The translations under genes were made by a program, and so were the position numbers. 54,454 nucleotides of DNA from a virus. Taxonomy: Duplodnaviria; Caudoviricetes. How positions within the stretch are numbered: the stretch's first letter is position 1; each line of letters starts with the position of its first letter. This document shows, piece after piece, positions 18,701-46,299 of this stretch. The stretch lies in IMG/VR virus record IMGVR_UViG_3300032892_000002, positions 1 to 54,454 of that record; one strand, 5' to 3'. The notes under the pieces are model-generated. The model worked only from the letters and a program-made list of their open reading frames with translations, was not told the DNA's origin and did no database searches.

Positions 18701-18791
18701 GATCTCAGCCAGGTCGCGGTCGAGTACGTCCTGATCAGCGCGGACTTCGACGTAAATACGCCGAAGCGATCCGGAAACCTTCCGGCGGCAT
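12794..18791 (-). CDS. Tape measure protein with lytic transglycosylase domain and intein; 5' end needs a +4-nt hop at a TTA codon
   Basis: Long Ala/Gly-rich helical protein after the tail chaperones; SLT motif (AESGWNPSAMNPSSGAYGIPQAL). ATG 18791 with SD GGGGGTGG reads MPPEGFRIASAY, then changes frame at TTA 18755-18753 into VEVRADQ. Confidence 0.9.
14177..15274 (-). mobile_element. Intein (366 aa) with LAGLIDADG homing endonuclease
   Basis: Starts CMDTDTQILTREGWK, block B TCTPNHRW, LLGWILGDG and FMRGVFGADG motifs, ends VWCPTTGLGTWTARQGRQVFLTGN with +1 Ser; removal rejoins WMMSYIA|STYGSP. Confidence 0.93.
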
Positions 18792-18817
18792 CGGCGGACC
18801 ACCCCCGATCGGCGGAC

Positions 18818-19216
18818 CTACGCCTGCGTGCTTGCGGGGACCCTGCTGACCGTTCCGTACATGCCGACACCGGGCGCCGGGGCGATCAGCCGTTCCAGCT
18901 CATCGGTGGTGACTACGGGCTGCTGCTGCGCCAGCCGGTGATACCGCAACGGATCATCCTCCGCCGGTGGCGGGTAAGAAGGACCTTCGCCGTCTTCCCG
19001 TTCCTGCTCGGCCATCTCGGCTTTCAGCCGCATCTGCACCGCACCCTGATACGACGGCAGCAGCAGCGCCATCCGCACAAACACGGCAGCGTCCAGCGCG
19101 GAAACATCGCCAACCCGGTGGAACGTGGAAAAATCGGAGACAACCTCGTCTAGCGCTTGCGAGATCCACCGGGTTTGCGCGTACCATTCTGCCCACTGCT
19201 CACGCCAGTTTTTGGG
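18818..19216 (-). CDS. Tail assembly chaperone, -1 frameshift extension (gpT-like)
   Basis: The -1 frame is open from the slippery site (PKNWREQWAEWY...) to the stop at 18818. Confidence 0.75.
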   Translation of the reverse strand, partial: PKNWREQWAEWYAQTRWISQALDEVVSDFSTFHRVGDVSALDAAVFVRMALLLPSYQGAVQMRLKAEMAEQEREDGEGPSYPPPAEDDPLRYHRLAQQQPVVTTDELERLIAPAPGVGMYGTVSRVPASTQA

Positions 19217-19524
19217 ACCAGTTTGTCCGGGTCGCCGCCGAGCCCATGTTTCAGGACCACATCCATCAACTGCGCCAGCTGTTCTTTGCTGATGTCCTCA
19301 CAGTCGAGCGCCGCCTGCCACGTTTCCTCACCGAGCACTGTCACCATGACATGCTTGACGGCGACGTCGACACCCCGTTCGGCGACGATGGCCATGTACT
19401 GCAGCGGCAGGTTCCCCGGCGGGTGCGCGAGCATCGTGTACATGTCGGCGCCGATGGAGAAAATGTCGACCCGTTCCTCGGCTGCCGCCTTGTCCCGGGG
19501 CACGATTTTGATGATGTCTGGCAC
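19150..19524 (-). CDS. Tail assembly chaperone (gpG-like)
   Basis: SD AGGTGG before GTG 19524; ERVDIFSIGADMYTM..VLGEETWQAAL; directly upstream of the tape measure gene. Confidence 0.8.
   Translation of the reverse strand: MPDIIKIVPRDKAAAEERVDIFSIGADMYTMLAHPPGNLPLQYMAIVAERGVDVAVKHVMVTVLGEETWQAALDCEDISKEQLAQLMDVVLKHGLGGDPDKLVPKTGVSSGQNGTRKPGGSRKR
19210..19216 (-). other. Programmed -1 frameshift slippery heptamer C CCA AAA
   Basis: X XXY YYZ heptamer in frame near the end of the chaperone; the -1 frame matches the 18818..19084 ORF. Confidence 0.75.
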
Positions 19525-19619
19525 GTGTTTACGCCACCTGAAGTCTCGCAGGGTGAGGATGAAACCCTTCCTGGCGAACAGAAACGCTACGCAGAGCAGG
19601 GGGATGATGCTGGTGATGG

Positions 19620-19745
19620 TCAACGCTGCGGCTCTGGTGGGCGTCTAGGTTGCATCGGTTGCCAGCGGGCGGCGCATTCGGCGCACATCGCTGCAGAGTC
19701 GAGGTCGCCGCTGTCGATGCCGCATTTGAAACAGTAACCGGTCAC
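19620..19745 (-). CDS. 41-aa CxxC...CxxC micro-protein
   Basis: MTGYCFKCGIDSGDLDSAAMCAECAARWQ..., preceded by GGGGG; below the ORF-track cutoff. Confidence 0.45.
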   Translation of the reverse strand: MTGYCFKCGIDSGDLDSAAMCAECAARWQPMQPRRPPEPQR

Positions 19746-19818
19746 AGCGGCCCCCAGCGGTCGGTTGGGAAGTTGGGGGGTGGGTCGCCGTTGACGCACC
19801 CCAGCCGGTCAGCGCGGG

Positions 19819-20400: not shown

Positions 20401-20467
20401 AACGGGCAAACGTAACGGGACGATAACGAGCCTGTATGGTGAACGGCGCAAAACAGTCCGCTAGGGT

Positions 20468-20863: not shown

Positions 20864-20888
20864 GGCACCGAACCAGGAGGTATGTAAG

Positions 20889-21467: not shown

Positions 21468-21530
21468 GGTTGTCTCCGTTAGATGTTGTGGTCAGCGCCG
21501 TCTCCCAGCGCTGATCGATGCGGCCGGGGG

Positions 21531-21920: not shown

Positions 21921-21935
21921 GGGGTGGACCCTTTC

Positions 21936-22486: not shown

Positions 22487-22491
22487 GAGGG

Positions 22492-22977: not shown

Positions 22978-22993
22978 AGGCCAGCCCCCCTGG

Positions 22994-23341: not shown

Positions 23342-23354
23342 CGGCGGTCCCTTC

Positions 23355-27473: not shown

Positions 27474-27499
27474 CCCGCGCCTCCTCTAACCCGGCGCCG

Positions 27500-28045
27500 C
27501 TACCCGGCGGTCAGCAGGTACGACCCGCCGCTGTGGGTGTGCCCGGTCACCGCCGACGCGGTCCAGTTCACCACCACACCCACGGCGTCGACGTTCACCG
27601 TCGACGCCGTGGTCAGATATTTGGTGGCGACCAGCTGCACACCGAGCCCAGCCATGTTCGACCAGGCGGCGACGCCGGTGAACGGGACGACGGTGCTGTT
27701 CGAGGTGGACGTGGCCAGCGTCATCGCGGTCGAAGAACCGAGCGGTGTGCCACCGTCGGTCAGTTGCGCCGTCACGGACGACCAGCGGGTGGTCGCGCCG
27801 GTCACGTAGTAGTACACGATCGCGTTGACGGAGTCCACGGAGGCGGGGATTTCGGATCCCATCGCGGTGTCCGCGCCGTACCCGGTGCAGGTGATCGTCC
27901 CCGCTTCACCGTTGGTCGCGCTGGCGTACGTGGCGCGGGAATTGTCGTTCGCCCCAGCGGCGCGGGCCGGGTTCGACCAGCTGTCGGACCCGCTCGACGC
28001 GGTGGAAGGTGTACCTGTCGCCCACAGGGTCGCGGTCGCAGCCAC
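27500..28045 (-). CDS. Hypothetical virion beta-rich protein
   Basis: SWSNPARA..ATYA..VNVDAVGVVVNWT; Thr/Ala/Ser-rich. Confidence 0.55.
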   Translation of the reverse strand: MAATATLWATGTPSTASSGSDSWSNPARAAGANDNSRATYASATNGEAGTITCTGYGADTAMGSEIPASVDSVNAIVYYYVTGATTRWSSVTAQLTDGGTPLGSSTAMTLATSTSNSTVVPFTGVAAWSNMAGLGVQLVATKYLTTASTVNVDAVGVVVNWTASAVTGHTHSGGSYLLTAG

Positions 28046-33143: not shown

Positions 33144-34727
33144 CTAGTACAGCACCCACGCGGTTGACAGGGTTCCGGTGTAGGTGACCGTGTACGACTT
33201 CCCTGACGGCACCGCTACCGGCCCGACATCGGTCCCGGCGGTGATCGGCAACGTGAGACCACCGACCGACACAGCGGTGATCGACCCGCCAGACGTGGAT
33301 AGCCACACTTGGGCGTCGCGGTAGTACCAGTTGAATTGCGGCACGGTCGACGCCGGCGCGGCTGGTGCGCCGGCGGTCTGCGGCCCTGGTGGCATGTTTT
33401 TCTGGATGACCCGAAGGTTCGCGCCGCCGGTGCCGATCCCGCCGTCCTGGTAGTGGCCTGAGCCGTTGACCCGCCAGCCGATGGTGCCGATGCCGTAGTT
33501 GTTCGGATCGAAAAACGCGCCGGCGGATTCGACGTCGAGGGTCTCCACGTCGATGTTGATGGTGTTGTCGAGGAAACCGATGGCCTGCTGGCACACTTCG
33601 GCGCTGACGTAATTGAGCTGACCGGCGTGCGGCATCGGGGTGCCGGCCCCGGAGTATGTTTCGACACCGATGATGCAGTACACGGCCCGGATCGAGTCGG
33701 CGGCCGTGTGCTCGGACGGCATCACCCCGTAGCACAAGCCTTCCGCTGACCACCAGCCGATGTTGCAGTTGTCGTTGTTGTTGAACGACGGCATCCGCAG
33801 CCCGAACGTCCACTGGTTCGAGATGTTCGCCGAGTTCACCATCGTCGGCACTATCGGCGTCGGCGGCGGCACAGCAGCGGCCATACACGCCCCGGTGATC
33901 ACGTTTGCTTCGGCGAGGCCCCAGAAATCCCACCCGCAGTACGTCGTGTTGTACGGCACCAGCATCGAGATACCGTCGACAGTGACCAGCAGATTGGTGA
34001 CAGTTCCGCCGCCGTAACCGTTGTACGGCCCACCAATGACCGACGCTGGGCCGTTCGCTATATCGTTGGTGCCGTCGGCGCGCATACAGGCCAGCACGGT
34101 CCCCGACGCCTGCGGGGTCTGCTGCAGCCAATGCGGCAACGCGGTCACATCCAGCACACCCCGGTACACGATGGTGATTTTCTGCGACGTAGGCACGATG
34201 ATCGGCAGCGGGATCTGCGCGTTCCCCAACGTGGCGCCCCCGATGACCGGCGCCCCGGCGATGCAGTACATCAACGGGTCGAAGATTATCTCTGCGTACC
34301 CGTTGCCTGCCTGCGCATAGGCGACAGCGGCAGCCTGCGCAGCCGCGATCGCAGCAGTGTCGTCAGTGCCGTAGTACGCGACCGCCTGCGACACCGACGA
34401 CGTGGCCGCCGCTGCGAGGGTCGCCGACCCGGCCCCAGCTGAGGAGATCGTCGTCGCCAGCGGCGTGAACGCGCCGCCACCCGCCCCGGACACGACGATC
34501 GCTTTTCCCGCGTCGGCGGCGGTGATCGACGCCGACGTGAACGTGTGGCTGCCGATCGTCATCGCGCCGTCGCTGACGACTTTGCCGTTACCCACCGCAC
34601 CGTACGTCGACGCGACGAAGCCGCCGACGTAGAACTGGTACGGGAAAAAGTACGGTGCAGGCACTTCCGGTGTCACCGCCCCTTCTTCTTGCAGAGCGGT
34701 CCACAGCGGGTTCAGCCGGGTACGCAC
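33144..34727 (-). CDS. Beta-helix/fibre-like virion protein
   Basis: YGAVGNGK..DAGKAIVVSGAG..GTDDTAAIAAA followed by beta-helix-like segments. Confidence 0.6.
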   Translation of the reverse strand: MRTRLNPLWTALQEEGAVTPEVPAPYFFPYQFYVGGFVASTYGAVGNGKVVSDGAMTIGSHTFTSASITAADAGKAIVVSGAGGGAFTPLATTISSAGAGSATLAAAATSSVSQAVAYYGTDDTAAIAAAQAAAVAYAQAGNGYAEIIFDPLMYCIAGAPVIGGATLGNAQIPLPIIVPTSQKITIVYRGVLDVTALPHWLQQTPQASGTVLACMRADGTNDIANGPASVIGGPYNGYGGGTVTNLLVTVDGISMLVPYNTTYCGWDFWGLAEANVITGACMAAAVPPPTPIVPTMVNSANISNQWTFGLRMPSFNNNDNCNIGWWSAEGLCYGVMPSEHTAADSIRAVYCIIGVETYSGAGTPMPHAGQLNYVSAEVCQQAIGFLDNTINIDVETLDVESAGAFFDPNNYGIGTIGWRVNGSGHYQDGGIGTGGANLRVIQKNMPPGPQTAGAPAAPASTVPQFNWYYRDAQVWLSTSGGSITAVSVGGLTLPITAGTDVGPVAVPSGKSYTVTYTGTLSTAWVLY

Positions 34728-36298: not shown

Positions 36299-36880
36299 TC
36301 AGTCCTCACCAGCCAGAGTCAGATATTCGGTGGTGACCGTGTTCCCTGCCGTCGCCGCGCTCAGCGACAACGCCGGCCACAGGAAATACTGCTGATCACT
36401 CGCCCACGTCGCCAGCGGAGTGATCGCCCCCGACGCGGGCAGCGGGACGATACCGAACGTCGCAGTGGGGAACCCGATCGACGTGAACGACCCCTGCGCG
36501 AGAACCGTCGACGCGCCGCCGAGCGCCAGGGTCCGCAACCCGATACGGATCGACGACGTCCACGGGGCGCTGGTCTGCGCGGTCGGCGTGAACGTTCCGG
36601 TCGACCCGAGCGTCAACGTGGTGCCGAACGCGTTGGTGGTCGTCAGATACAGGAAAAACTGCCACGTCGGGATCGTCGCCGTGGCAGTCATCAAGCCACC
36701 AATCTCCAGCCTCAGCGACGATGACCGCGACCCCACCGACCCCATGATCCCACCAGGAATCACGATCGCCGGATACGTCAGCGTGATACTCGACCCCGGC
36801 GACGTCGTTGGAGTACTTGTCGTCGCCGCGCCGTAAAACGAGTACAGCAGCTCCGTCTGGGTGCCGAAAAAACCGCTCAC
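36299..36880 (-). CDS. Hypothetical virion protein
   Basis: Thr-rich beta protein coupled to the glycosyltransferase by a GTGA overlap. Confidence 0.6.
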   Translation of the reverse strand: MSGFFGTQTELLYSFYGAATTSTPTTSPGSSITLTYPAIVIPGGIMGSVGSRSSSLRLEIGGLMTATATIPTWQFFLYLTTTNAFGTTLTLGSTGTFTPTAQTSAPWTSSIRIGLRTLALGGASTVLAQGSFTSIGFPTATFGIVPLPASGAITPLATWASDQQYFLWPALSLSAATAGNTVTTEYLTLAGED

Positions 36881-37578
36881 CGTTCACCACCGCCCCGCCG
36901 CAGAGCCCGTATCTTCGCCACGTCCCCAGCCATCCGCTCCGCCCGCCACACCTTGTACGCCTGCTCGTCATGCTGCACATGCGGCCACGCGTCCCGGTAC
37001 GTCGCGTCCCACTGCGCTTTCCCGGTGACGTGATGCTTATGCGGCACCAGCACGTCCCGCAGATACGCAAGGCACCCTGCCGCTTCGCCGAGGTCGTGGA
37101 CCACGTTGTCGACCCACCAATGGTTCAGCGACGGCTCACACATCCATCCCAGCGCTTCCGCGATGTCCGACGACTGGATCCACGCTTCACACACATCGTC
37201 GCGGATCTGGTCGTTCGGGTACGCGAACCCCGTCCCCCCCATCCCCGCGACCGCTTCCAGTAGCAGCTTGTCCCAGCCTTCGGTGACTGGCACATGGTCG
37301 TCGCCGAACGACCCCAGATGGCGGAACGACCCAGCCGCATACGACGCCACGTAGTTCGTCCACCCGGCCAGCCCTTTACGCGGGCCTGTCACCACCGACC
37401 CGGGGAACCCGCCCGCTTTCGCCGCCGCCCGGTTCTGTTCGAGCGCGGGGTCGTCGTCGTCGAAACAGAACACCACATCGGTGCGGGCCCGCGATGTGGT
37501 TTTGACGGTGCGGGCGAACCGGGCCACGTTCCCTGGCCGTCCCCGCGACGGGACGATCAGCAGCAGGTCAGGTCGCAT
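36877..37578 (-). CDS. GT-A fold (GT2-like) glycosyltransferase
   Basis: LLIVPSRGRP, FCFDDDD, GSFGDDHVP..GWD and HWWVDN motifs. Confidence 0.8.
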   Translation of the reverse strand: MRPDLLLIVPSRGRPGNVARFARTVKTTSRARTDVVFCFDDDDPALEQNRAAAKAGGFPGSVVTGPRKGLAGWTNYVASYAAGSFRHLGSFGDDHVPVTEGWDKLLLEAVAGMGGTGFAYPNDQIRDDVCEAWIQSSDIAEALGWMCEPSLNHWWVDNVVHDLGEAAGCLAYLRDVLVPHKHHVTGKAQWDATYRDAWPHVQHDEQAYKVWRAERMAGDVAKIRALRRGGGER

Positions 37579-39274
37579 CAGCAAACGGTACTGTGATCAG
37601 GCCGAGGCCGAATTCGCCGCCCATCTCCTCCCACACCAGCCCCGTCTCCGCGCAGTACGTGTCCAGCGCCCGGGCCACCGGGAACCCGTCACCGGGCTCG
37701 AACTTCGTGTCGTGCGCCAGTACCGTCCCGCCGGGCCGGACCAGCGGCACATACTGCCGCAGCTCCGCCAGCGTCTGGTCATAGGAATGGGGGTCGACGT
37801 CGAGGAACAGCACCTCCACCTCAGACGGCAGCTGCGCGATCACGTCGGGGTCGAGGTCGTCGCCTTTCACGAAGGTCCACAGGCCGCTGCGGGCCCAGTT
37901 CGCAGGTACCTGCGGGCCGGTGATGTCGACCGACCACACGTGCCCGCCGCACATCTCGGCCGCGGCCAGGAACGCTGACGTTGAGTTGCCGGACCGAACC
38001 CCCAGTTCGATGATCCTCGGCCCGGCGTATTTCAGCGCCGTGTCCCGCAGCACCGGCAGGCTGTCCCGCATGTCGGACCACTCACCCAGCCGCCGCTCGT
38101 AGTCGTCGCCGATCGGTTCCGCTTTGGCCGCCATCTTGTCTTCGAGCGCCGCCAACGCTGGGAGCCAGAACTCGTGGAACACCCGGTCAACGTCGTACCC
38201 GGCGGCGAACTCGCGGGCCTCTTTGCGGCGGGTGTCGTTCATCGGCCACTCAGCGAACGCCTCCTCATACGCGGCGATGATCCCCGACACCGACGGGCAC
38301 ATCCACCACGCCACATGCCCCGGCGCCCAGATCGGCTGGCCTTTCACCTTCCACCCAGCACCGCACAGCTCCGACATTGCGGACCCGTCGGTCACCACCA
38401 CCGGCGTCCCGCACGCCTGCGCCTCCAGGATCGGCAGCCCGAACCCTTCAGCGAGAGAACAGCACGACAGCACATCCAGCACCTGATACCACTGCGCCAT
38501 CAGGTCCCGCCCGACCATGCCGCACACGTAGGCATGCTGGTCCGGGTACATCACCGCGTCGGTGATACCGAGCCGGTCGGTGATTTTTTTCAGGTTCAGC
38601 CCGCCGACCGGCTCCGTGTTGATCGTGGTGTGCAGCACCAGGCGGCTGTTTTCGTGCCGCTCATGGAACTTCGCGAACGCCAGCAACTGTTCAGGGAACG
38701 CCTTACGGTTCCCCGACTCCTTGTTGATCGCGTTGATGCCGATCAGGAACGTGCTGGCCCCGACGCCCATCGATTCGCGGACCTCGTCCCGTTCCGCCGG
38801 GTCAAGCGGGCGGAACAGGGTGGTGTCGACGCCGTGGGGGATGTACAGCGGGTCGTATCCGGCGTCGCGTAGCTGGGTTTCGCCGAACCGGCTGAACGCG
38901 ATCGGCCAGCCTCCGGATGCGTCGAGTTTGGTCCGGTCCCCGTCGCCGAGGGGGGCGCAGTCGACAGGCATCCAATGCGCCACGTTCAGCTCTTTGAGTG
39001 GTTCCGCGTTCATCGCGAACACATCACACAAGGTGATCATCAGGTCGGCGCGGCTGTACCGGTAGTGCGACGCGATGACGTCGGAGCCGTAGGGGTCGAG
39101 ACCGCCGGGCAGGATGGTGAACCCCTCCCAGCCGAGGACGCTGCCGGTCATGCTGTACGGGGCGCTGATCGTTACGTCGTGGCCGGCCGCCTTGAGCCGT
39201 GGCACCCACAGAGCGGTCTGGGTACCGTACCCGCTTGTTATCATCGGGGCGTTGGAGTTCCACAAAATGCGCAC
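37568..39274 (-). CDS. GT4 glycosyltransferase fused to a class I SAM methyltransferase (Methyltransf_24-like)
   Basis: SNAP..SGYG, IPHGVD, EGFGLPILEAQACGTPVV; C-terminal IIELGVRSGNST, LFLDVD and VLAHD. Confidence 0.9.
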   Translation of the reverse strand: MRILWNSNAPMITSGYGTQTALWVPRLKAAGHDVTISAPYSMTGSVLGWEGFTILPGGLDPYGSDVIASHYRYSRADLMITLCDVFAMNAEPLKELNVAHWMPVDCAPLGDGDRTKLDASGGWPIAFSRFGETQLRDAGYDPLYIPHGVDTTLFRPLDPAERDEVRESMGVGASTFLIGINAINKESGNRKAFPEQLLAFAKFHERHENSRLVLHTTINTEPVGGLNLKKITDRLGITDAVMYPDQHAYVCGMVGRDLMAQWYQVLDVLSCCSLAEGFGLPILEAQACGTPVVVTDGSAMSELCGAGWKVKGQPIWAPGHVAWWMCPSVSGIIAAYEEAFAEWPMNDTRRKEAREFAAGYDVDRVFHEFWLPALAALEDKMAAKAEPIGDDYERRLGEWSDMRDSLPVLRDTALKYAGPRIIELGVRSGNSTSAFLAAAEMCGGHVWSVDITGPQVPANWARSGLWTFVKGDDLDPDVIAQLPSEVEVLFLDVDPHSYDQTLAELRQYVPLVRPGGTVLAHDTKFEPGDGFPVARALDTYCAETGLVWEEMGGEFGLGLITVPFADAT

Positions 39275-39323
39275 TTTCAGCACCACCTCCTCTCGTGTGG
39301 CCGAAACGGACCTGTAATGGAAA

Positions 39324-39842
39324 TTACTCGCTCCAAATCAGGTCAACGTTGTAGGTGGTCGACACGGTGGACGACTGGGTGACGAACACATGCAGACCCG
39401 CGTTCGCGGTCTGGTTCGCGATCGCCGGGACCTGCCACTCGTACCCTGCCGGGGGGAACTCTTCCCACGACGAGCCGGTGGTCTGCGGAAGTTCCTGCTC
39501 CCACAGCACGGTGCCGACCGCTGGCGGCGCCGAGGTCCACGACGTCGCGACCTGGCCGAGGGACGGGGCGTTGACACCGGCGTAGTAGTCGTGCGCGTTG
39601 CCGGACACCAGGTTCGCCGCGGTGCTCGCCCCTGCGGTGTTACGGGCAAGCTGGAACAGCACGTTGTTCCCGGCGACCGCGGTGGTGGTGATAATGTCGA
39701 CCCGGATCCCGACGACGTATAGCCGCTTCAGGAACGCGGTGCCCGCTGTGCCTGCTGCCAGCAGCGACAGGATCGGGTTGGCGGTCGATACGGTGACAGC
39801 GGTGCCTGACACGCGGCCGGTGTAGATGTCGCTGATTGGCAT
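39324..39842 (-). CDS. Hypothetical virion protein
   Basis: SD GAGGGAG; beta-rich, ELPQTTGSSWEEFPP. Confidence 0.6.
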   Translation of the reverse strand: MPISDIYTGRVSGTAVTVSTANPILSLLAAGTAGTAFLKRLYVVGIRVDIITTTAVAGNNVLFQLARNTAGASTAANLVSGNAHDYYAGVNAPSLGQVATSWTSAPPAVGTVLWEQELPQTTGSSWEEFPPAGYEWQVPAIANQTANAGLHVFVTQSSTVSTTYNVDLIWSE

Positions 39843-39920
39843 GGCTTGCTCCCTCTTGTCGTTATCGCATGCCGGGCGGAATGAGGGCATGCCAAAGTAA
39901 GGCCGCCCTGGGGTGGTGGG

Positions 39921-40268
39921 CTATTCGGTGCGTATTTGATAAAGTGCGGCCCTCAAAAATGGGTTCGGTGGGAAGACGTATGGGCCGCTGGCCACGTCGC
40001 CGCTGGCGGCGGTCACGAATTTGCCGTGCACGTTGCGCCAGTTGACGTGGCCTTCTTCGACGTACAGGGCGTACGGCGCGGCGGCGTACACGTACAGCAC
40101 CTGATCTTCGACGGTGAAGCCGATCGACCTGGCTAGTTCACCGGTGTTTTCCGGCGCCAAATAGGTCGCGTCGGTGGCGATCTGCGGGCCGAGACGGGTG
40201 CGGAAAAACGTGTCGATCGCGGCGTCGATTTCTGCGGGGTAATCCGGGTCGAAGATGACACGGGCCAT
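39921..40268 (-). CDS. HK97 gp10-like neck/tail completion protein
   Basis: APENTGELARSI..AAAPYALYVEEG..PNPFLRAAL. Confidence 0.8.
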   Translation of the reverse strand: MARVIFDPDYPAEIDAAIDTFFRTRLGPQIATDATYLAPENTGELARSIGFTVEDQVLYVYAAAPYALYVEEGHVNWRNVHGKFVTAASGDVASGPYVFPPNPFLRAALYQIRTE

Positions 40269-40336
40269 GCGAAGCCACGCCCTCTACGGTGGTGACTTGG
40301 GACCAGCCAGGCATCGTCTGCGGCTGTGGAAACTAA

Positions 40337-40696
40337 TCAGGTGGACGGGCCGGTGACCCGTCTCAGTGTGATCCGGTAGTCGGTGGGGGCACCGATGATG
40401 GTGGGTACCGCGACGACTGATTCGACGTAAAACACTTCGCCGGTGGTTTCGTCGAGGATCTGCTGCGATTCGAAACCTGCTTCGATGGGGAAGAACGGCT
40501 GCACCCGCAGGGTGATGTTGCGGACGGTGCGGGGCATCTGGGTCGCCGGGTCCCATGTGGTCTGGCGGGTTTCGGCGAGGAACGCGGGGATGTGGCTGGT
40601 CTGCGGGGTCCCGGCGTCGGCGAGGTTCCCCCACGCGTCGGTGCTCTGACCGGTCAGGAACGTCACGTAGGTGTTGGCTATTTCGGCGACCACCAT
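40337..40696 (-). CDS. Head closure (stopper)-like protein
   Basis: TDAWGNLAD..ILDETTGEVFYVESV..ITLRRVT; position before the gp10-like gene. Confidence 0.65.
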   Translation of the reverse strand: MVVAEIANTYVTFLTGQSTDAWGNLADAGTPQTSHIPAFLAETRQTTWDPATQMPRTVRNITLRVQPFFPIEAGFESQQILDETTGEVFYVESVVAVPTIIGAPTDYRITLRRVTGPST

Positions 40697-40703
40697 CGGC
40701 CTC

Positions 40704-41465
40704 CTAGTCGCCTGATGCGGCGGCGAGCCGGTCCGCGAACTCCCCAGGCACGTAGCCGGGTTCTGTTTTCCCGTACACGGTCGCCAGGTCACGGGCCAGT
40801 TCTTCACCTGCCGGGGTGAGCCGCCAGCCGAGGACTTTATGCGGGGGCCGCCATGTGCTCGGGGCGGGTTCGCCGCGCACCGGACGGGACGGCAGATCCC
40901 CGCCGGCGGTGAGCGCGTCCCAGTCGTGGCGGACCATCCGGTCGTCAGCTTTTCCCATCAACCGCGAAATCGCCCGCGATGACGGGACCTGGCCGGTTTC
41001 GCCGACTTTCGCGAGAACGAGGCGGCGGACCCGTTCCCGTGGGGTCATCCGGCCGATCTGGCAGAAATGCTCATGGCCGCAGCCGGGGCATTGGACCGCT
41101 TCGACGATCGCGGACACCGGCTCCGCCGCTGTGTGCGTGACAAGCGGTTTGGTCAGCCCTTCGCGGTGCATAGCGGTGAACGCGTCAGGCACCAAAGCGG
41201 TGAAACGGTGGTCTTTGACGCAATGCCGCAACGCGTCTTCGGTCATGACTCTGCCGTGGCGGCCGTTTGGGATCAGTACCGTGCATACCCGTGGCACATC
41301 CCACCGGGTGTCGATGACACCGGTGTCGTCGAACAAAACGTGGAGCAGTTCCCGCGCCACCTCGACGGGGTTGGGTTGCTGCAGCGCGTGTCCGGCGGCG
41401 GTGAGAGCGGCTTCCGCGATGTCGATTTCGGTGTTCGCTTCACGGATGGCCTCGGTTAAGGTCAC
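40704..41465 (-). CDS. Hypothetical protein with CxxC and C-terminal HTH-like region; codon 3 is TTA
   Basis: GTG ACC TTA ACC; CPGCGH; VPSSRAISRLMG. Confidence 0.55.
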   Translation of the reverse strand: MTLTEAIREANTEIDIAEAALTAAGHALQQPNPVEVARELLHVLFDDTGVIDTRWDVPRVCTVLIPNGRHGRVMTEDALRHCVKDHRFTALVPDAFTAMHREGLTKPLVTHTAAEPVSAIVEAVQCPGCGHEHFCQIGRMTPRERVRRLVLAKVGETGQVPSSRAISRLMGKADDRMVRHDWDALTAGGDLPSRPVRGEPAPSTWRPPHKVLGWRLTPAGEELARDLATVYGKTEPGYVPGEFADRLAAASGD

Positions 41466-41474
41466 CTGCTGATT

Positions 41475-41807
41475 CTATGTGAAGATCTCTGGGGGGAGTG
41501 TGGTCCCTGATTTGCGGATGAACGTTTCCAGCACCGCGATCCGCCGCTCAAGATGGGTGATCTTCTCATGCAGGTCAGCGATCATGTGTTCCTGGTGGGA
41601 CAGCGCCGACTCGTAGATCTGCTGCGCCCGCCGGTACGCCGCCGACTCTGCTTCCTCACCGGCAGCGGTCTGCTTGTCCCGGGCCCGCTGTTCGGCTGCG
41701 CGCCGGTCACGGCCGTGCGCGCGGAGGGAACTGGTGTACGCCACCACCGCGACCGCGAAACTTGCCGCGCCGACGATGACACTGCCCCATGCCGCGTCGA
41801 TGCTCAT
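41475..41807 (-). CDS. Membrane protein with coiled coil (holin-region type)
   Basis: N-terminal TM segment followed by an amphipathic heptad helix. Confidence 0.6.
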   Translation of the reverse strand: MSIDAAWGSVIVGAASFAVAVVAYTSSLRAHGRDRRAAEQRARDKQTAAGEEAESAAYRRAQQIYESALSHQEHMIADLHEKITHLERRIAVLETFIRKSGTTLPPEIFT

Positions 41808-42202
41808 GGGTCACGGGCCTCAGGCCATCCGCTGATCAGCACCACCAGCGCTGCGATCCCAGCCCATGCGACCGCTGCAGTCCAGCCGCCGGGGATGGAC
41901 CGGTGGATCCAGGCGACGGTGATGAACGTGGCCCACGCTGCTTTCATCAGCGCGGCGGCGGCGTACTGGAACTGGTCCCGGCTGAGCGGCACACCGGTGA
42001 GGCAGACCACGCCGACCGCGATCCATGCCCAGCCCCACGCGGTGAGCGGCAGTTGCGGGGTAAGCTGGTCAGCGAATGCGGGGACGTATCCTGCGGCGAG
42101 ACCGCTGCCGTAGCCGAAGTCGATCGCCGCGAACAGCGTCAGCGCCGCGCCGCGCCGCCCGGATCGGCGTTTCAGCTCAGCCCAGGCAGATCGCCACCCC
42201 AC
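41804..42202 (-). CDS. Multi-pass membrane protein (possible holin)
   Basis: About four hydrophobic segments; RRGAAL...ISGWPE. Confidence 0.55.
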   Translation of the reverse strand: MGWRSAWAELKRRSGRRGAALTLFAAIDFGYGSGLAAGYVPAFADQLTPQLPLTAWGWAWIAVGVVCLTGVPLSRDQFQYAAAALMKAAWATFITVAWIHRSIPGGWTAAVAWAGIAALVVLISGWPEARDP

Positions 42203-42220
42203 CGCCGCCCCCCATCAGGT

Positions 42221-42925
42221 TCAGGCGATCCGCTGCCCGTACCCGCCGGTCGCGTTCAAGGTGTTACTTTTCGCCGACCAGGTGAGGGTCGTGATGAACC
42301 CGGTGTCCTCCGACGTGTCGACACCGGTGATCGGTGACAGCGGTCCCGCCAGATACGGTGTCGACGCCCCAGTGGTGGAGTCGGTGGAAAGGTTCAGCCG
42401 GAACCCGCCCGCGATGCTCGACGTGGAGTAGAACTGCAGCATCGCGGTGATTTCCCACAGGCACCCGGTTTCGGTGCCGATGAGCGGGACCGGCTGCAAC
42501 GTCCCGACCGCTGTGCCGGAATCGATGGTCCCGTAGTAGGAGGTGAACACCATCGACGGGGCCTGCCCGGTGGCGGTGTAATCACCCCAGATGTGCAGCA
42601 GGTAGATCGAACCGGCTGCGGGTTCCCCCCCAGCGACCGTGTAGGACAGCAGTATCGTTTCGGTGTCGTCGGCGACGGTCACCGGGGTGGTCATGCCGTT
42701 ACGGGCGCCGTTGAGCAGATTCGTGGAACCGTTGGCGCGTTTCGTCCACATCTTGCCCTGGTAGACGTAGATCGCGGCGCCGTCCGCCGGGCAGTTCGGT
42801 GCGTACGCCTGAGTGGAAAGACACCCGCCGTCGACCGTTATCGCCATGTCGCCGACATATGCGGCGACCTGCCCCAGCGTGGCAGGGGAAGAGAACGACG
42901 CGCCGGACATGTCGTAACGGGTCAC
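42221..42925 (-). CDS. Hypothetical virion protein
   Basis: SD GGGAGGG; beta-rich C-terminal domain. Confidence 0.55.
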   Translation of the reverse strand: MTRYDMSGASFSSPATLGQVAAYVGDMAITVDGGCLSTQAYAPNCPADGAAIYVYQGKMWTKRANGSTNLLNGARNGMTTPVTVADDTETILLSYTVAGGEPAAGSIYLLHIWGDYTATGQAPSMVFTSYYGTIDSGTAVGTLQPVPLIGTETGCLWEITAMLQFYSTSSIAGGFRLNLSTDSTTGASTPYLAGPLSPITGVDTSEDTGFITTLTWSAKSNTLNATGGYGQRIA

Positions 42926-42962
42926 AGCAGCCCTCCCATGAGGTTCGACGCCGGAACCCGGC

Positions 42963-43724
42963 CTACCAGTTGATCAGCGCGGCGCTGCCGAGCACACCCG
43001 CGACATGCAGGATCTCCGCTGCCCTCGGGCACAGCAGCGGGAACGCGTTCGTTGTCATGTTCCGCGCCCGCGTGTACGAGATCCCGCCCACGTTCAGCGA
43101 CACGTACTGCCGTTTCATCCCCGCAGGGTCGTTGTCGGCGAGCAGATACTGAGTCTGCGCGCAGGTGGCCCGCGCAAACGCGTTGATCACATACGGGTCG
43201 GTGGGCAGCCCGTTCTGGTTCACCGGATACACCGCCGCGATGATCGCGTTGTCGATGTCTTCCGACGCCCGCTGCACCGCCGTCACCACAACCTGATCCG
43301 GTGTCGACTGGTCCCCCGACCAGGCCCGGTACTGCCCCGCCGTCGCATACAAGCCAGGTGCGGGAGCGCCGGTAAAGTTCGGTGAGACGGTGACGGTCTG
43401 CTGATACGTTTCGGTGACCGCGCCGACTGTCCCGGTCCAGGTGACCAGATAATCCCCGGTGATCATCAACCAGGGCGCGGTCCACGTGTAGTTATACGTC
43501 ACCCCATCAGGGGTGGTCACACCCGCCGATGTGGCAGGGACCGGGGTGCCGAACCCCGCACCGGGGGTGTTCAGCGTGGACGCGTCTATGCCCACCGTCA
43601 CGTTCGCCGCCGGCGCCCCCGCGTAGCTGGCGCGGAACGTCTCGAACATCTGCGACAGCACAACCTGGCCGCCCTGCACCACATCCGACTGCCGGGCACC
43701 GAGCAGAACCGACACCGACGACAT
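42963..43724 (-). CDS. Head-tail adaptor with an N-terminal Ig-like domain
   Basis: YAT..Y..W..RASEDID..ARATCAQ..VSLNVGGISY..LCPRAAEIL adaptor pattern; N-terminal YNYTW..GDYLVTWTG. Confidence 0.75.
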   Translation of the reverse strand: MSSVSVLLGARQSDVVQGGQVVLSQMFETFRASYAGAPAANVTVGIDASTLNTPGAGFGTPVPATSAGVTTPDGVTYNYTWTAPWLMITGDYLVTWTGTVGAVTETYQQTVTVSPNFTGAPAPGLYATAGQYRAWSGDQSTPDQVVVTAVQRASEDIDNAIIAAVYPVNQNGLPTDPYVINAFARATCAQTQYLLADNDPAGMKRQYVSLNVGGISYTRARNMTTNAFPLLCPRAAEILHVAGVLGSAALINW

Positions 43725-43738
43725 CAGCCCACCACCTC

Positions 43739-43744
43739 TACAAT
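43739..43744 (+). promoter_or_regulatory. -10 element TACAAT of a putative leaderless antisense promoter
   Basis: 7 nt upstream of GTG 43752, with no SD. Confidence 0.45.
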
Positions 43745-43751
43745 CAGCGGT

Positions 43752-43964
43752 GTGGACAACCCATTCGGCTGCCGGTGCAACGCCATGGGCGCCGGCTACC
43801 CATGTATCCGCCACGCTGACGCCGAGGACATGCTCTGCTCACGCTGCCGCACATCTACGACATGCAGCTACTCACGCGCATCCCAGGTGGCCGCGGCCGA
43901 AGCGGCGGCGCCGCCGAACAGGTCGCCGTCGCGGACCCGGATAACACCCCAGCCGAACCGCTGA
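43752..43964 (+). CDS. Small antisense Cys-rich protein
   Basis: CRC..PC.RHADAEDMLCSRCR occupies the only gap in the - strand operon here. Confidence 0.5.
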   Translation: MDNPFGCRCNAMGAGYPCIRHADAEDMLCSRCRTSTTCSYSRASQVAAAEAAAPPNRSPSRTRITPQPNR

Positions 43965-46299
43965 GCCTCCCCAGACACGATCTCCGACGTGTCGAACCTG
44001 GCCACCAGTTCCGGCCACAACCGCCACACCTCAGCCCGGTCGTCGCCTTCGCTGGCGATGTCATGCACCAGAATCAGCCCACCCGGGCGGACAAGCGGCC
44101 CATACATCGCCAGATCCTGCCGCACCCCCGCCACCCGGTGATCCCCGTCCACAACCAGAACATCCAGCGACCGGCCCTCAAGTTTCGCGGCCAGCCAGTC
44201 TCTGCTTGACAGGTCATGTGAATCACCGACATGCACCACAGCGCCGTGCGCCGCCAGCTTCGCGCCGGTACCGCCGGTTTCGTACGAGTTGTCCGCCAAA
44301 GTGATGCCGTACACCTCGGCACAGATCTGCCGCCACGCGTACAACGTGCCGCCCTGATCGCAGCCGATCTCCGCCACCACCTGCGGCCGGGTGCGGTGCA
44401 GCAACGTCAGCACCTCGGTCAGCTCATCCAGGCACTGCGACGCGCCGTGCGCCATCGCCGCCGCCGCTGCCGTGTGCGCGTTGAACCCTTCCGGCCGGGC
44501 GATCACATAGCCCTTGTACACCGGCAAATCACGGAACGTGTACCCCAATTCGGCGAGCAGCCCGTCGAGGTCTTCACGGTCGTAAAACCCGTACACCGAA
44601 TGATCTTCGATGAACAGCACCGGGCGGCACCGGTCCAGCGTTTCCCGCATCCCCCGCAGCGCATGCAGATCCGCGCCCTCAACGTCGAGTTTCACCAAAT
44701 CGACACGCGGTTCGTCTTTCAGCACCGCGTCCAGCGGCACACCGGGGACTTTCCGCCCATCAGGGCCCCCGGTGTCGCGGACCATGTTCGACCCGTCGCG
44801 GGCGAACCCGTTGGGGCTGTGCAACGTCAGCATCGTGAAATCGTCCCAGGCCGCCACATTGTGCACCGTCGCGCAGGTGATGCTGTTCAGCTCAAGGTTG
44901 CGTTCCAGCTGCTGCACCGTTTCGGGGCTCACTTCGACGGCGATGACTTTGGATGCTTTCGCGGAGGCCCGCACCGTGTAATGCCCGACATGGGCTCCGA
45001 CGTCAAGGAAAACCCCGCCGGAGGGGAGGAGCCGCAGCACCGTCTGGTCGATCAGCGCCTCATGGCCGAGGGCCAGCCCGTCGCCGCTGGGTTCGGTGCC
45101 GCCGATCTGCCAGCGGAACCCGCCGTACCGGATGATCCCATCAGCCGCATCGCCGAGCCCTTCCTCAAGGTCAGCGAGCACCGGTTCCATGTACTGCCCC
45201 GCCACCACGTCCGCGTCGTACTGCAACGCGAACTCGCGGCATTCCGCCGAATACGTCCGCTCGAGGGTGCCGTCTTTCCACGCCCGGTACGCGTCTTCGT
45301 AGGCGGCGGCGAGGTGACCCACATACGGTTTCGTCCACCACGCGTGGAACGGCCCCACCCAGTACGGCTCCCCCGCGACTTTCCACCCAGGGCCCGCCAG
45401 TTCCGACATGGCGGAACAGTCGGTGACCACCGTCGGAATCCCGCAGGCCTGCGCTTCGATGACCGGCAGGCCGAACCCTTCACCCCACGTCGCCCCGGAG
45501 TACAGGTCAAGGGCGTTGTACCAGGCGGCCATGTCCGCAGCGGTGTACGACCCTGCGACATAGGCGTACGCGTCGGCCCAGCCGACCGCTTCGTCGATCC
45601 CCAGGTTCGCCGCCAAAGCCCGCAGATCGTCGCCGCCGCTGACCGTCGATGACAGGGTGTGGCACAGCAGCATCGTGTCCGGGTATTTCGCGTGCAGCCC
45701 AGCGAACGCGGCGAACTGCTCCGGGAACCCTTTACGGTTGGTGTCCTTGTTACACGCGTTGATCCCGATGACGAACTTGTCCTGCGGGAGGCCGAGCGCC
45801 CGGCGGATCGCGGCCCGGTTCCCCATCCGCCGGAACACAGTGGTGTCGATGCCGTGCGGGCAGTACAGGGCGCCGTGGCCGCCGCTGTCGAGGACCCGTT
45901 TCCCGAACCGGCTCATCGCGATCACCCTGGCGGTGGTCCCCGACAACGCCGCCTGGTCAAGCTCGCCCAGCGGTTCCCGGTCCACCGGCGTCCACATCGC
46001 CAGGTTCTGCCCCCGCAGCAACGCCACATCCTGCGCGAACGGGTCCAGCAGGGTGAACGTCAGATCAGCGCCGAAATGCTTCGCGTGGCCACCGATCACA
46101 TCGGATGAGAACGGGTGCAGCCCACACGGATACACGGTGATCCCGTTCCACCCGGTGCGGGCGCCCTGCAGCCCCCAGATCGCGGCGACCGCTACTTCGT
46201 GGCCCATTTTCTGCAGCCTCGGCGCCCAGATCGCGGTCTGCTGCCCGTAGCCGGTAAAGTGCCGACCCACGGGGCGTTGCTCACCCACAGGATCTTCAC
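43868..46299 (-). CDS. GT4 glycosyltransferase + FkbM-type methyltransferase + Methyltransf_24-like fusion; 5' end needs a +5-nt hop at a TTA codon
   Basis: SD GAGGAGG then GTG AAG ATC CTG TGG (MKILWVSNAPWVGT) in a different frame from GYGQQT...; EGFGLPVIEAQACG; FLDVGAHVG..VKLDVEGAD; AEIGCDQGGT..VDGDH..VHD. Confidence 0.88.

What the first reader, a model, noticed from the sequence alone, without database searches (positions are those of the whole stretch)
18735..46299. Candidate UUA (bldA)-gated ribosomal hopping system controlling virion genes
Seen: a manual scan of the - strand virion operon found only four in-frame TTA codons (18755, 41459, 46257, 49740). Three have a synonymous copy of the preceding codon 4-6 nt downstream: TAT-TTA..TAC (+4), ACT-TTA..ACC (+5), ACC-TTA-ACC (+6). 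The +4 and +5 cases fall exactly where the tape measure and GT4 genes go out of frame, at codons 13 and 15. Known: UUA is the rarest codon in Streptomyces and relatives, is read by the developmentally regulated bldA tRNA, and hungry codons promote peptidyl-tRNA hopping between matched codons. UUA-associated bypassing has been proposed for some Streptomyces phages (e.g. the phiHau3 terminase; recalled, not checked). Inference: an inverted bldA switch. Scarce UUA-tRNA causes a stall and hop, giving full-length protein; abundant tRNA reads into a premature stop, giving no tail and no glycosylation. Very short wobble-to-Watson-Crick hops whose landing codon overlaps the UUA, in two virion genes, look undescribed.
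Basis: partly seen in the sequence, partly recalled or inferred. Interest (0 to 1): 0.95.

Follow-up and report, generated by a model that had tools for sequence, protein, structure and literature searches.

The report
Slow-codon ribosome hops in phage genes
Two virion genes of this uncultured phage are broken about a dozen codons in by 4-5 extra bases that start with the very rare leucine codon TTA, and relatives carry the same break, so the ribosome most likely skips those bases, a way of reading genes known so far from one Streptomyces phage.

Summary
The glycosyltransferase (GT) gene has 5 extra bases (ACT TTA CC GGC) exactly where family homologues read W-x-x-T-G-Y-G. Nine other distinct GT genes from metagenomes and IMG/VR are also interrupted near the 5' end. 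Eight are at the same spot, with TTA, TGA or TAG after the last conserved codon. The next triplet tracks the take-off codon (ACY..ACC, AGT..AGC, ACT..GCT). The ninth (L044) is at the Asn-Ala junction (AAT TTA G AAC). This fits a peptidyl-tRNA hop over a slow codon, not an error, a pseudogene or a one-base frameshift.

The tape measure (TMP) site (TAT TTA C) has no informative relatives. Codon usage, a ribosome-binding site before ATG 18791 and a 10-bp hairpin whose loop is the skipped bases support a +4 hop there too.

The mechanism is a short-range version of the UUA-triggered bypassing proposed and partly tested for the Streptomyces phage phiHau3 terminase.

The "inverted bldA switch" is not supported as stated. 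The host is unknown. Relatives use stop codons instead of TTA. An ordinary TTA sits inside another head gene. Nothing was tested at the protein level.

The parts
46307..46314 (-). Ribosome-binding site GGAGGTGA, 7 nt before GTG 46299
   Evidence: score 8 of 8, best on the - strand. The same GGAGGTGATGC-like stretch precedes the start in L166, L241, L174, L246 and L016.
46258..46299 (-). GT frame A: GTG start and 14 codons (VKILWVSNAPWVGT) ending in the take-off codon ACT 46260-46258
   Evidence: Matches the family N-terminus M[KR]ILWHSNAPWxx[TS]. Codon-usage log-odds +5.88, against -3.17 for frame B over the same stretch.
46253..46257 (-). The 5 extra bases: slow codon TTA 46257-46255, overlapped by the landing codon ACC 46255-46253
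   Evidence: Removing 5 nt restores W-x-x-T-G-Y-G, the spacing of 34 of 36 homologues. The same 8-mer ACTTTACC is in L008/L166.
43868..46252 (-). GT frame B from the resume codon GGC 46252: GT4 domain, FkbM methyltransferase, Methyltransf_24, 794 codons
   Evidence: No TTA among its 78 Leu codons.
46192..46194 (-). Stop of frame A (35-codon product if TTA is read normally)
18799..18806 (-). Ribosome-binding site GGGGGTGG, 7 nt before ATG 18791
   Evidence: score 7.0; one of 29 scored starts on the - strand
18756..18791 (-). TMP frame A: ATG and 12 codons (MPPEGFRIASAY) ending in the take-off codon TAT 18758-18756
   Evidence: Codon-usage log-odds +4.18 for the 11 codons after ATG; only 0.29% of 12252 off-frame windows reach this.
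18752..18755 (-). The 4 extra bases: TTA 18755-18753, overlapped by the landing codon TAC 18754-18752; resume codon GTC 18751
   Evidence: The frame relation was checked.
18744..18767 (-). 10-bp hairpin GCUUCGGCGU / ACGUCGAAGU whose 4-nt loop AUUU (18757-18754) lies between take-off and landing
   Evidence: z -2.03; 5 of 200 shuffles fold as well. About 30 such hairpins on the - strand of 54 kb.
12794..18751 (-). Tape measure protein frame B from the resume codon
   Evidence: phrog_13339 tape measure, E 3.2e-19, with a transglycosylase motif. Follows the G/GT chaperone pair.
18800..18802 (-). Rival in-frame GTG start of the TMP ORF
   Evidence: It has no scored ribosome-binding site. The 14 codons after it score -13.13, lower than all 6126 true in-frame windows.
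18735..18737 (-). Stop of TMP frame A (18-codon product if TTA is read normally)
41454..41465 (-). GTG ACC TTA ACC: in-frame TTA at codon 3 between identical ACC codons. A possible in-frame +6 hop that is not needed for the frame.
   Evidence: The chance of identical neighbours is about the ACC frequency (232 of 6266 codons).
49738..49740 (-). Plain in-frame TTA (GGT TTA CCC) inside the MuF-like minor head gene, with no landing codon

Best explanation
Both genes carry a minimal translational-bypass cassette.

Inferred sequence of events:
- The ribosome starts at a strong ribosome-binding site and reads 12-14 codons.
- It then meets a slow-to-decode codon in the A site. In this phage that codon is UUA, which is almost unused here.
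- The peptidyl-tRNA sits on an NNU codon (Tyr UAU or Thr ACU), held by a wobble pair.
- It lets go and re-pairs 4 or 5 bases downstream on the matching NNC codon (UAC, ACC). That codon overlaps the UUA.
- Decoding resumes at the next codon and gives full-length tape measure protein and glycosyltransferase.
- Ribosomes that read UUA normally stop after 18 or 35 codons.

Inferred effect: the cassette sets, and may modulate, how much of two low-copy virion-assembly proteins is made from a strongly initiated late operon.

Shown: the anatomy, its recurrence in relatives and the covariation of landing with take-off codon.
Inferred: the hop itself, its efficiency and its purpose.

My confidence is about 0.9 for the GT site and about 0.7 for the TMP site.
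For: GT site:
1. Homologues read M[KR]ILWHSNAPWxx[TS]GYGQQ in one frame. The window has this in two frames with exactly 5 extra nt.
2. 34 of 36 database homologues with W...GYG have 3 residues in between, as the hop product has. A -1 shift product would have 5 (0 of 36). A +2 product would have 4 (1 of 36).
3. Relatives found by protein homology in metagenome contigs: of 80 loci, 68 were examined and 62 were assessable. Of these, 57 are intact, 4 are frame-broken within the first 15 codons (L007, L008, L016, L044) and 1 has an in-frame TAG (L051). In all 4 broken ones the codon after the last conserved codon is TTA, TGA or TAG, and the rest of the gene is open.
4. IMG/VR pattern scans:
- ACY-slow-CC pattern: 3 GT genes among 16 hits.
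- A scan designed from the hop model for Ser take-off (AGY-slow-GY): 4 GT genes among 6 hits, all AGT TTA GC.
- A scan allowing all four take-off/landing combinations: 8 of 8 hits are GT genes. All have the matching middle base and none is a mismatched combination.
5. In total there are ten distinct recoded sequences. The 8-mers are invariant while flanking third-codon positions differ.
6. In 2 of 9 sequences, frame B has no ATG/GTG/TTG before GYG, so separate initiation cannot serve.
7. Recoded genes sit in at least 4 places of the family tree, next to intact ones (FastTree).
8. There is no TTA among 384 Leu codons downstream of the site in 9 GT ORFs.

TMP site:
- Codon usage favours the ATG frame upstream of the site (+4.18) and rejects the GTG frame (-13.13). 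None of 6126 true windows scores that low, and the lowest of 13 held-out gene starts is -10.56.
- There is a ribosome-binding site with the same geometry as at the GT gene.
- There is a hairpin around the gap, as around phiHau3 site 1.

Sequence reliability:
- Logan contigs of runs X1 and X2 cover 18295-19800 with no difference, but these runs may be the source samples.
- An identical TMP protein starting at GTG 18802 is on two other contigs.
- The GT protein is called only from Met28 on a 38849-nt contig.
- A canonical -1 slippery site in the chaperone genes reads correctly.

Precedent: phiHau3 terminase has GGC TTA CTCC GGT and TCT TTA ACGG TCC, both +10. A junction peptide was found by mass spectrometry in E. 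coli after UUA was changed to UAA (PMC10732093, sections 3.4-3.6 read).
Against: - There is no protein, ribosome-profiling or reporter evidence for any of these sites, and the efficiency is unknown.
- The TMP ORF has an in-frame GTG (18802) 15 nt after the upstream stop, so recoding is not forced there. No relative close enough to compare TMP 5' ends was found.
- No conserved RNA structure or internal Shine-Dalgarno-like signal accompanies the GT sites. The nascent chain is only 12-14 residues. An efficient hop would therefore lack the stimulators known from T4 gene 60.
- The two TAG-type sequences (L007, L246) land on GCT, which matches ACT in 2 of 3 bases only.
- The plain TTA at 49740 shows that UUA must be decodable during late expression, so normal reading competes with the hop.
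- The pattern scans that required a matched landing cannot on their own count as evidence of matching. Only searches are unbiased in that respect.
Confidence: 0.8

Rival explanations
1. Only the GT gene is recoded. The tape measure protein simply starts at the in-frame GTG 18802, and the ATG 18791 short ORF with its TTA is a coincidence or a small regulatory upstream ORF.
For: GTG 18802 is in frame, with no stop before the TMP body, 15 nt after the stop of the chaperone T ORF. Gene callers on two other contigs chose it. No homologue shows an uninterrupted MPPEGFRIASAYVEV.
Against: - The 14 codons after GTG score -13.13, below every one of 6126 true windows. The ATG frame scores +4.18.
- GTG has no scored ribosome-binding site, while ATG has one with the same spacing as the GT start.
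- TTA with matched TAT/TAC leads exactly into the TMP frame.
- A 10-bp hairpin is centred on the 4 bases.
Confidence: 0.25
2. The frame is restored by one-base frameshifting, not a hop. At the GT site this would be -1, for example after Leu-tRNA reads UUA and slips back. At the TMP site it would be +1, by out-of-frame binding of Tyr-tRNA. The proteins would carry one or two extra residues.
For: The net frame changes are -1 and +1. The TMP junction cannot be checked against homologues. The translation with TATT read as one step is open.
Against: - There is no slippery heptamer at either site.
- TGA and TAG variants have no tRNA to slip.
- The spacing W-x-x-[TS]-GYG in 34 of 36 homologues fits only the hop product.
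- The triplet at +5 tracks the take-off codon (ACY with C, AGT with G) in 8 of 8 hits of the unbiased scan. A frameshift model does not require this.
Confidence: 0.1
3. The cassettes form an inverted bldA switch in a Streptomyces host. Scarce UUA-tRNA in vegetative cells gives the hop and virions. Abundant tRNA late in development gives termination and no tails or glycosylation.
For: - The same model was proposed for phiHau3 terminase (PMC10732093, introduction and last section read).
- TTA is nearly absent from this phage, and no tRNA gene is in the window.
- Six of ten recoded GT sequences use TTA.
- The nearest cultured portals include Streptomyces phages.
Against: - The host is not known.
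- Four of ten recoded sequences use TGA or TAG, which cannot sense a tRNA.
- The MuF-like head gene needs UUA at 49740 to be read as Leu in the same late operon. If that protein is needed for virions, as I assume from its family, no tRNA level gives all virion proteins under an all-or-none switch.
- L016 appears to start at a non-canonical ATC, which points to constitutive down-tuning.
Confidence: 0.25
4. Assembly or sequencing error, or a dead gene in a metagenomic population.
For: The window is an uncultured viral contig of 84% estimated completeness. Depth in the runs is only 7-9.
Against: - Independent Logan contigs agree over the TMP site, and other assemblies give the same proteins.
- Ten distinct GT sequences from different collections carry the same kind of 5-nt (once 7-nt) insert. 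A slow codon is always first, and the rest of the gene is always open.
- Random indels would be mostly 1 nt and scattered.
Confidence: 0.02

Closest known systems
UUA-triggered translational bypassing in the large terminase gene of Streptomyces phage phiHau3 and two Streptomyces prophages (proposed by Smith et al. 2013; Antonov et al. 2023, PMC10732093)
   Same: - A frame-disrupting short insert relative to uninterrupted homologues, with UUA as the first codon of the insert.
[quoted passage not shown]
- High-GC actinophage context.
- A local hairpin around the gap at site 1, as at the TMP site here.
- A slow sense codon that is interchangeable with a stop. This was shown experimentally in E. 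coli in the paper and is seen naturally here.
   Different: - The distance is +4, +5 or +7 instead of +10, so the landing codon overlaps the slow codon (except in L044).
- The site is 8-15 codons from the start instead of deep inside the gene.
- The genes are a virion-associated glycosyltransferase and a tape measure protein, not terminase.
- Natural TGA and TAG versions exist.
- Ten distinct GT sequences carry it, against 3 of 100 terminase genes in the paper (section 3.4).
Phage T4 gene 60 bypassing (50-nt gap)
   Same: Peptidyl-tRNA leaves a take-off codon that is followed by a slow codon (a stop) and re-pairs at a matched landing codon. The take-off codon lies in a stem-loop, as at the TMP site.
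   Different: Gene 60 needs a nascent-peptide signal about 25-30 residues back, a 5' stem-loop and a 50-nt gap (PMC5009743, passages read). Here the nascent chain has only 12-14 residues, and at most 4 bases lie between the codons.
Synthetic 'stop-hops' and hungry-codon hops in E. coli (Weiss et al. 1987, +5 and +6; Gallant and Lindsley). Known to me from the title, reference lists and passages in PMC5009743 and PMC10732093; the primary papers were not read.
   Same: Short hops between matched codons over a stop or a starved sense codon, with no elaborate signals.
   Different: Those were low-level events on laboratory constructs. According to the 2016 review, natural use of short-distance hops was sought but hardly known. 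Here the arrangement is conserved in natural genes that need it for a full-length product.
RF2 (prfB) +1 programmed frameshift at CUU UGA C
   Same: A slow stop codon followed by C in the A site early in a gene. The output reflects the availability of the factor that reads the slow codon.
   Different: In prfB the tRNA re-pairs on an overlapping codon one base on and is helped by an internal Shine-Dalgarno sequence (recalled). Here the re-pairing codon does not overlap the take-off codon.
Bypassing elements (byps) of Magnusiomyces capitatus mitochondria
   Same: Many short inserts in coding genes are skipped in translation, with an unused codon in the A site and sometimes only 2-of-3 matching of take-off and landing (PMC5009743 passage), as in the TAG-type GT genes.
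   Different: Those inserts are 27-55 nt mobile elements in a mitochondrial system (length recalled). Here the inserts are 4-7 nt in phage genes.

Membership tests
Slow-codon (UUA/stop) translational bypassing of the phiHau3 type | Short frame-disrupting insert where uninterrupted homologues are contiguous | tested here: met
   GT: a 5-nt excess against the family N-terminus. For TMP this could not be tested, because no informative homologue exists.
Slow-codon (UUA/stop) translational bypassing of the phiHau3 type | Rare UUA or a stop codon directly 3' of the last conserved (take-off) codon | tested here: met
   Window GT and TMP sites. All ten recoded GT sequences. TTA is 1 of 492 Leu codons in the window genes.
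Slow-codon (UUA/stop) translational bypassing of the phiHau3 type | Landing codon matching the take-off codon, next to the resume codon | tested here: met
   Perfect tRNA-compatible matches: ACT/ACC, ACC/ACC, AGT/AGC, AAT/AAC and TAT/TAC. Two TAG-type genes match in 2 of 3 bases (ACT/GCT). The unbiased scan found 8 of 8 with the matching middle base.
Slow-codon (UUA/stop) translational bypassing of the phiHau3 type | Contiguous protein product shown by mass spectrometry or immunoblot | not testable with these tools
   No proteomic data. No RNA run is listed for this DNA.
Slow-codon (UUA/stop) translational bypassing of the phiHau3 type | Stimulatory mRNA structure or internal Shine-Dalgarno near the site | tested here: inconclusive
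   The TMP site has a 10-bp hairpin around the gap. The GT sites show no conserved structure.
bldA-dependent regulation (Streptomyces tRNA-Leu-UAA) | Host is a Streptomyces with developmentally limited UUA decoding, and the output depends on that tRNA | not testable with these tools
   The host is unknown. Stop-codon variants in relatives argue that tRNA sensing is not essential to the cassette.
Canonical -1 programmed frameshifting (X XXY YYZ) | Slippery heptamer at the shift site | tested here: not met
   There is none at 18758-18749 or 46260-46250. The phage has one elsewhere: C CCA AAA at 19216-19210 in the tail chaperone genes.
T4 gene 60-type bypassing | Long (about 50-nt) gap with a nascent-peptide signal and a take-off stem-loop within the gap | tested here: not met
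   One to four bases lie between take-off and landing, and the nascent chain has 12-14 residues.
GT4 / GT-B glycosyltransferase (Pfam Glycos_transf_1, Glyco_trans_1_4) | Domain match above Pfam's curated cut-off | tested here: met
   PF13692 scores 38.9 bits (cut-off 27) and PF00534 scores 31.9 (cut-off 26.4). PF05050 FkbM and PF13578 methyltransferase domains are also present.
Tail length tape measure protein | Family match and position after the G/GT chaperone pair | tested here: met
   phrog_13339, E 3.2e-19. The chaperone ORFs with their -1 slippery site lie directly upstream. Minor tail proteins lie downstream.

The most novel reading that the evidence does not exclude
A five-base cassette is enough, without long-range signals, to make actinobacterial ribosomes hop. 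The cassette is a wobble-read take-off codon, a slow codon and an overlapping Watson-Crick landing codon. It has been gained repeatedly in phage virion-glycosylation genes, and here also in a tape measure gene. It would act as a tunable valve. TTA versions would couple the output of tail and glycosylation proteins to the host's supply of UUA-reading tRNA. TGA and TAG versions would couple it to release-factor activity.
Probability: 0.3. Interest if true: 0.9.

Novelty: new variant of a known kind. Interest (0 to 1): 0.75.

Why it matters
Natural use of short-distance ribosome hopping has been looked for since the 1980s. According to the 2016 review (PMC5009743, passages read), few natural uses were then known: T4 gene 60 and its relatives, and yeast mitochondria. 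The phiHau3 terminase is a candidate, and its authors say the proposal went largely unnoticed (PMC10732093).

This window and its relatives add ten natural, independently varying examples in one protein family. They include:
- a built-in natural experiment, because the slow codon is swapped among TTA, TGA and TAG;
- a landing codon that changes together with the take-off codon.

The cassettes are about 10 nt long, so they are easy to move into reporters. That makes three questions directly testable: what the minimal signal for bypassing is, whether a wobble-to-Watson-Crick gain drives the re-pairing, and whether rare-codon tRNA supply controls phage assembly.

There is also a practical consequence. 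Gene callers truncate these genes. Here the GT was called from Met28 and the TMP from Met54 or from GTG 18802. Glycosyltransferases and tape measure proteins of uncultured actinophages may therefore be mis-annotated.

Tried and rejected
**Searches for relatives that found nothing useful**
- Megablast of both regions against cultured phages: no match.
- IMG/VR search with the TMP N-terminal region: no relative.
- Protein search with the TMP: only the phage's own protein and five relatives at 29-35% identity. Their N-termini do not settle the start.
- tblastn of the TATT-read TMP N-terminus against phages: no match.
- The closest GT relative, P0015 (63% identity), has an N-terminus missing from its gene call and may be an eleventh case. 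Its DNA was not among the 80 loci returned by the metagenome scan, nor found in IMG/VR.
- Genome scan: only 3 family members (L085-L087), all intact.

**Pattern scans and the hop finder**
- The +7 pattern at the Thr-Gly junction gave 0 GT genes among 49 hits.
- The L044-type pattern gave 0 hits.
- The generic hop finder is not specific when stop codons are allowed. It returned 34 rows in the window, mostly ordinary gene ends. I used only its TTA rows.
- A scan of two long contigs (G001, G002) found no second TTA site.

**RNA structure**
- Whole-region folding energies are not unusual (z 0.05 and -1.38 for the 131-nt stretches).
- RNAalifold on nine GT sites shows no shared structure.

**Sequencing runs**
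- No RNA holder is listed.
- In run X3, a '2 letters left out at 18797' comes from one short contig piece of depth 2.4. I do not count it.
- X3 and X4 have no long contig over the TMP site.

**Calls discarded or failed**
- the codon model had two training genes out of frame. Replaced.
- the tree had the window row in the wrong frame and was unfinished. Replaced.
- too few specified bases. Re-sent with two more bases.
- wrong coordinates for one ORF. Re-sent without it.

**Not available**
- Supplementary figures and tables of PMC10732093 (site drawings, prophage sequences) could not be seen. I read the phiHau3 sites from the genome record instead.

Full report
**What the window is**

The window is a complete IMG/VR viral record of 54454 nt, estimated 84% complete. 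It has 66.8% G+C and no tRNA gene.

The - strand carries a virion operon:
- portal (52705-54435)
- MuF-like minor head protein (49138-50253)
- major head protein (47150-48097)
- connector-like gene
- a 3-domain glycosyltransferase/methyltransferase gene (43868-46299)
- head-tail adaptor
- two more glycosyltransferase-like genes (37568-39286 and 36877-37584)
- tail chaperones
- a 2000-residue tape measure protein (12794-18802)
- minor tail proteins

The nearest cultured portals are from Streptomyces, Gordonia and Microbacterium phages at 42% identity or less. An actinobacterial host is therefore likely, but the genus is open.

**The observation**

TTA is almost unused. It is 1 of 492 Leu codons in 6266 codons of ten confident genes.

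I looked at 20415 and 20887: both lie before the likely starts. 23434/23407 and 30423/30408 I placed from the ORF list only.

The tape measure ORF has its own in-frame GTG at 18802.

**The glycosyltransferase site**

Frame A starts at GTG 46299, behind a perfect GGAGGTGA. It reads VKILWVSNAPWVGT, then TTA, and stops after 35 codons. Frame B reads ...TGYGQQTAIWAPRLQKMGHEVAVAA and runs on for 794 codons.

Homologues read M[KR]ILWHSNAPWxx[TS]GYGQQ... in a single frame. This holds for:
- two cultured phages;
- dozens of database proteins.

Among the database proteins, 34 of 36 with W...GYG have exactly three residues in between.

The window therefore has exactly five extra bases, GGC ACT TTA CC GGC. 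Skipping from ACT to the overlapping ACC gives the family spacing. A -1 shift would add two residues (0 of 36 precedents). A +2 shift would add one (1 of 36).

**Relatives**

A metagenome scan with a family alignment returned 80 loci. I examined the 68 whose match began within the first 17 query residues. The other 12 begin at residue 45 or later. Of the 68, 62 show the 5' end:
- 57 are intact.
- Four are frame-broken within the first 15 codons.
- One low-GC locus (L051) has an in-frame TAG.

The four broken ones read:
- L008: CGT ACT TTA CC GGG TAC
- L016: GGT ACC TGA CC GGC TAC
- L007: CCC ACT TAG CT GGC TAT
- L044: TCT AAT TTA G AAC GCG, a +7 hop one motif earlier (Asn to Asn)

All four come from contigs of 62-68% G+C.

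The IMG/VR scans gave:
- ACY-slow-CC pattern: 3 GT genes among 16 hits (L166, which equals L008 on an 88-kb contig; L174 and L178 with ACC TGA CC).
- Ser version. If the peptidyl-tRNA re-pairs, family members with Ser before GYG should carry AGY-slow-GC. The scan for it found 4 GT genes among 6 hits, all AGT TTA GC, in three different sequence backgrounds.
- All four take-off/landing combinations allowed: 8 hits, all GT genes. All had the matching middle base and there was no mismatched combination. This scan added L246 with ACT TAG CT.
- Control patterns: the +7 version at the same junction gave 0 GT among 49 hits, and the L044 type gave 0 hits.

That makes ten distinct recoded sequences. Further properties:
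- The 8-base cassettes are invariant while neighbouring third-codon positions differ.
- The genes are otherwise open for 362-794 codons.
- In L166 and L243 frame B has no start codon before GYG.
- None of the 384 Leu codons downstream of the site in nine genes is TTA.
- A FastTree tree places recoded genes in at least four positions beside intact sisters, so the cassette has been gained or lost repeatedly.

Error, pseudogene, split gene and simple frameshift all fail on these facts.

**The tape measure site**

No relative is close enough to compare 5' ends. The case therefore rests on the window itself.

1. Codon usage. The 11 codons after ATG 18791 score +4.18 on a coding-versus-off-frame log-odds; 0.29% of 12252 off-frame windows reach this. 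The 14 codons after GTG 18802 score -13.13. None of 6126 true windows is that low, and the lowest of 13 held-out gene starts is -10.56. The GT site, where homology gives the answer, behaves the same way (+5.88 against -3.17).
2. Ribosome-binding site. ATG 18791 has GGGGGTGG seven bases upstream, the same geometry as the GT start. GTG 18802 has none that scored. The score is weakly specific, with 29 hits on the - strand.
3. Matched codons. TAT TTA C places a matched TAC four bases on, in the TMP frame.
4. Hairpin. A 10-bp hairpin (18767-18744) has as its loop the four bases between take-off and landing (5 of 200 shuffles fold as well). About 30 hairpins of that size exist on this strand. The first phiHau3 site is enclosed by a hairpin in a similar way.

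I put the TMP hop at about 0.7 and the GTG start at about 0.25.

**Reliability of the sequence**

- Logan contigs of two runs span 18295-19800 without a difference. Both runs may be the source samples, so this excludes assembler error only.
- The same TMP protein from GTG 18802 occurs on two other contigs.
- The GT protein is called only from Met28 on a 38849-nt contig.
- The tail chaperone pair uses a textbook C CCA AAA -1 site at 19216-19210 that reads through correctly.

**What is known**

Smith et al. (2013) proposed UUA-triggered bypassing for the phiHau3 terminase. Antonov et al. (2023, PMC10732093) tested it in part. I read the abstract, the introduction, sections 3.4-3.6 and the last section; the supplements are closed. 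The paper reports:
- Two 10-nt inserts in phiHau3, each starting with UUA.
- Three of 100 terminase genes affected.
- A full-length product in Streptomyces.
- In E. coli, recoding only after UUA was changed to UAA, with a junction peptide found by mass spectrometry.

I confirmed the two sites in NC_018836: GGC TTA CTCC GGT and TCT TTA ACGG TCC, both +10.

The 2016 review (PMC5009743, passages read) notes that short natural hops were expected but scarcely known. It also notes that synthetic +5/+6 hops over stops exist.

Four literature searches found no paper linking bypassing with phage glycosyltransferase or tape measure genes.

**How it most likely works and what for**

The slow codon empties the A site. 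The wobble-held peptidyl-tRNA moves to the nearby Watson-Crick codon. Its first base is the last base of the slow codon, which is why only A-initial take-off codons (Thr ACN, Ser AGY) occur at the +5 sites. The TAG type keeps the last two bases instead (ACT to GCT).

The function is inferred. Both proteins are needed in few copies. All ten GT cassettes and the TMP cassette lie within 15 codons of the start. One relative (L016) even seems to start at ATC. This points to a valve that lowers output.

A tRNA-sensing role is possible for the TTA versions. Two facts make a strict inverted bldA switch unlikely (about 0.25):
- the stop-codon versions in relatives;
- the plain TTA at 49740, in a head gene of the same operon.

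**Verdict**

It is a new short-range, N-terminal, stop-interchangeable variant of a known but barely documented kind of recoding. All evidence is comparative and sequence-based.

Noticed in passing
window 19210-19216 (- strand): Canonical -1 slippery heptamer C CCA AAA near the end of the tail chaperone ORF (19150-19623). It leads into the T ORF, which ends at TAG 18820-18818. That TAG is in the same frame as the tape measure ORF.
   Followed up: partly
window 18808-18818 and 18790-18800 (- strand): An 11-nt direct repeat GGTCCGCCGAT occurs twice, 18 nt apart, just before the tape measure start. The second copy ends in the AT of ATG 18791. Meaning unknown.
   Followed up: no
window 36877-46299 (- strand): Three glycosyltransferase- or methyltransferase-type genes sit between the head and tail genes: 43868-46299, 37568-39286 and 36877-37584. 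A pectin-lyase-like gene (33144-34727) is also there. The set looks like a virion glycosylation module.
   Followed up: partly
L016 about 5885-5900: In the TGA-type relative L016 the GT reading frame has no ATG/GTG/TTG at the family start position. ATC sits 7 nt after GGAGGTGA, where homologues have ATG, which suggests a non-canonical start.
   Followed up: no
L051 about 3685-3705: A 49% G+C relative has an in-frame TAG inside the same N-terminal motif (TGG TCC TAG TGG ACT AAC TCA GGA TAT). It could be readthrough, a reassigned TAG or another hop.
   Followed up: no
window 46552-46622 (- strand): GTG 46620 has a good ribosome-binding site (CGGGGTGA, spacing 5) but opens only a 22-codon ORF. 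The connector-like homology lies in another frame, whose first ATG (about 46611) has poor spacing. No TTA or matched codons are visible, and the start of this gene is unclear.
   Followed up: partly
window 37-68 and 27580-27612 (- strand): Two 14-bp perfect inverted repeats: GGAACTTGTCGGTC/GACCGACAAGTTCC at the window's low end, and CCACGGCGTCGACG/CGTCGACGCCGTGG inside the 1372-residue ORF.
   Followed up: no
upstream of the GT start in the window (46300-46316), L166, L241, L174, L246, L016: The stretch GGAGGTGATGC before the GT start is nearly identical in otherwise diverged phages. The gene seems to travel with its own ribosome-binding site.
   Followed up: no
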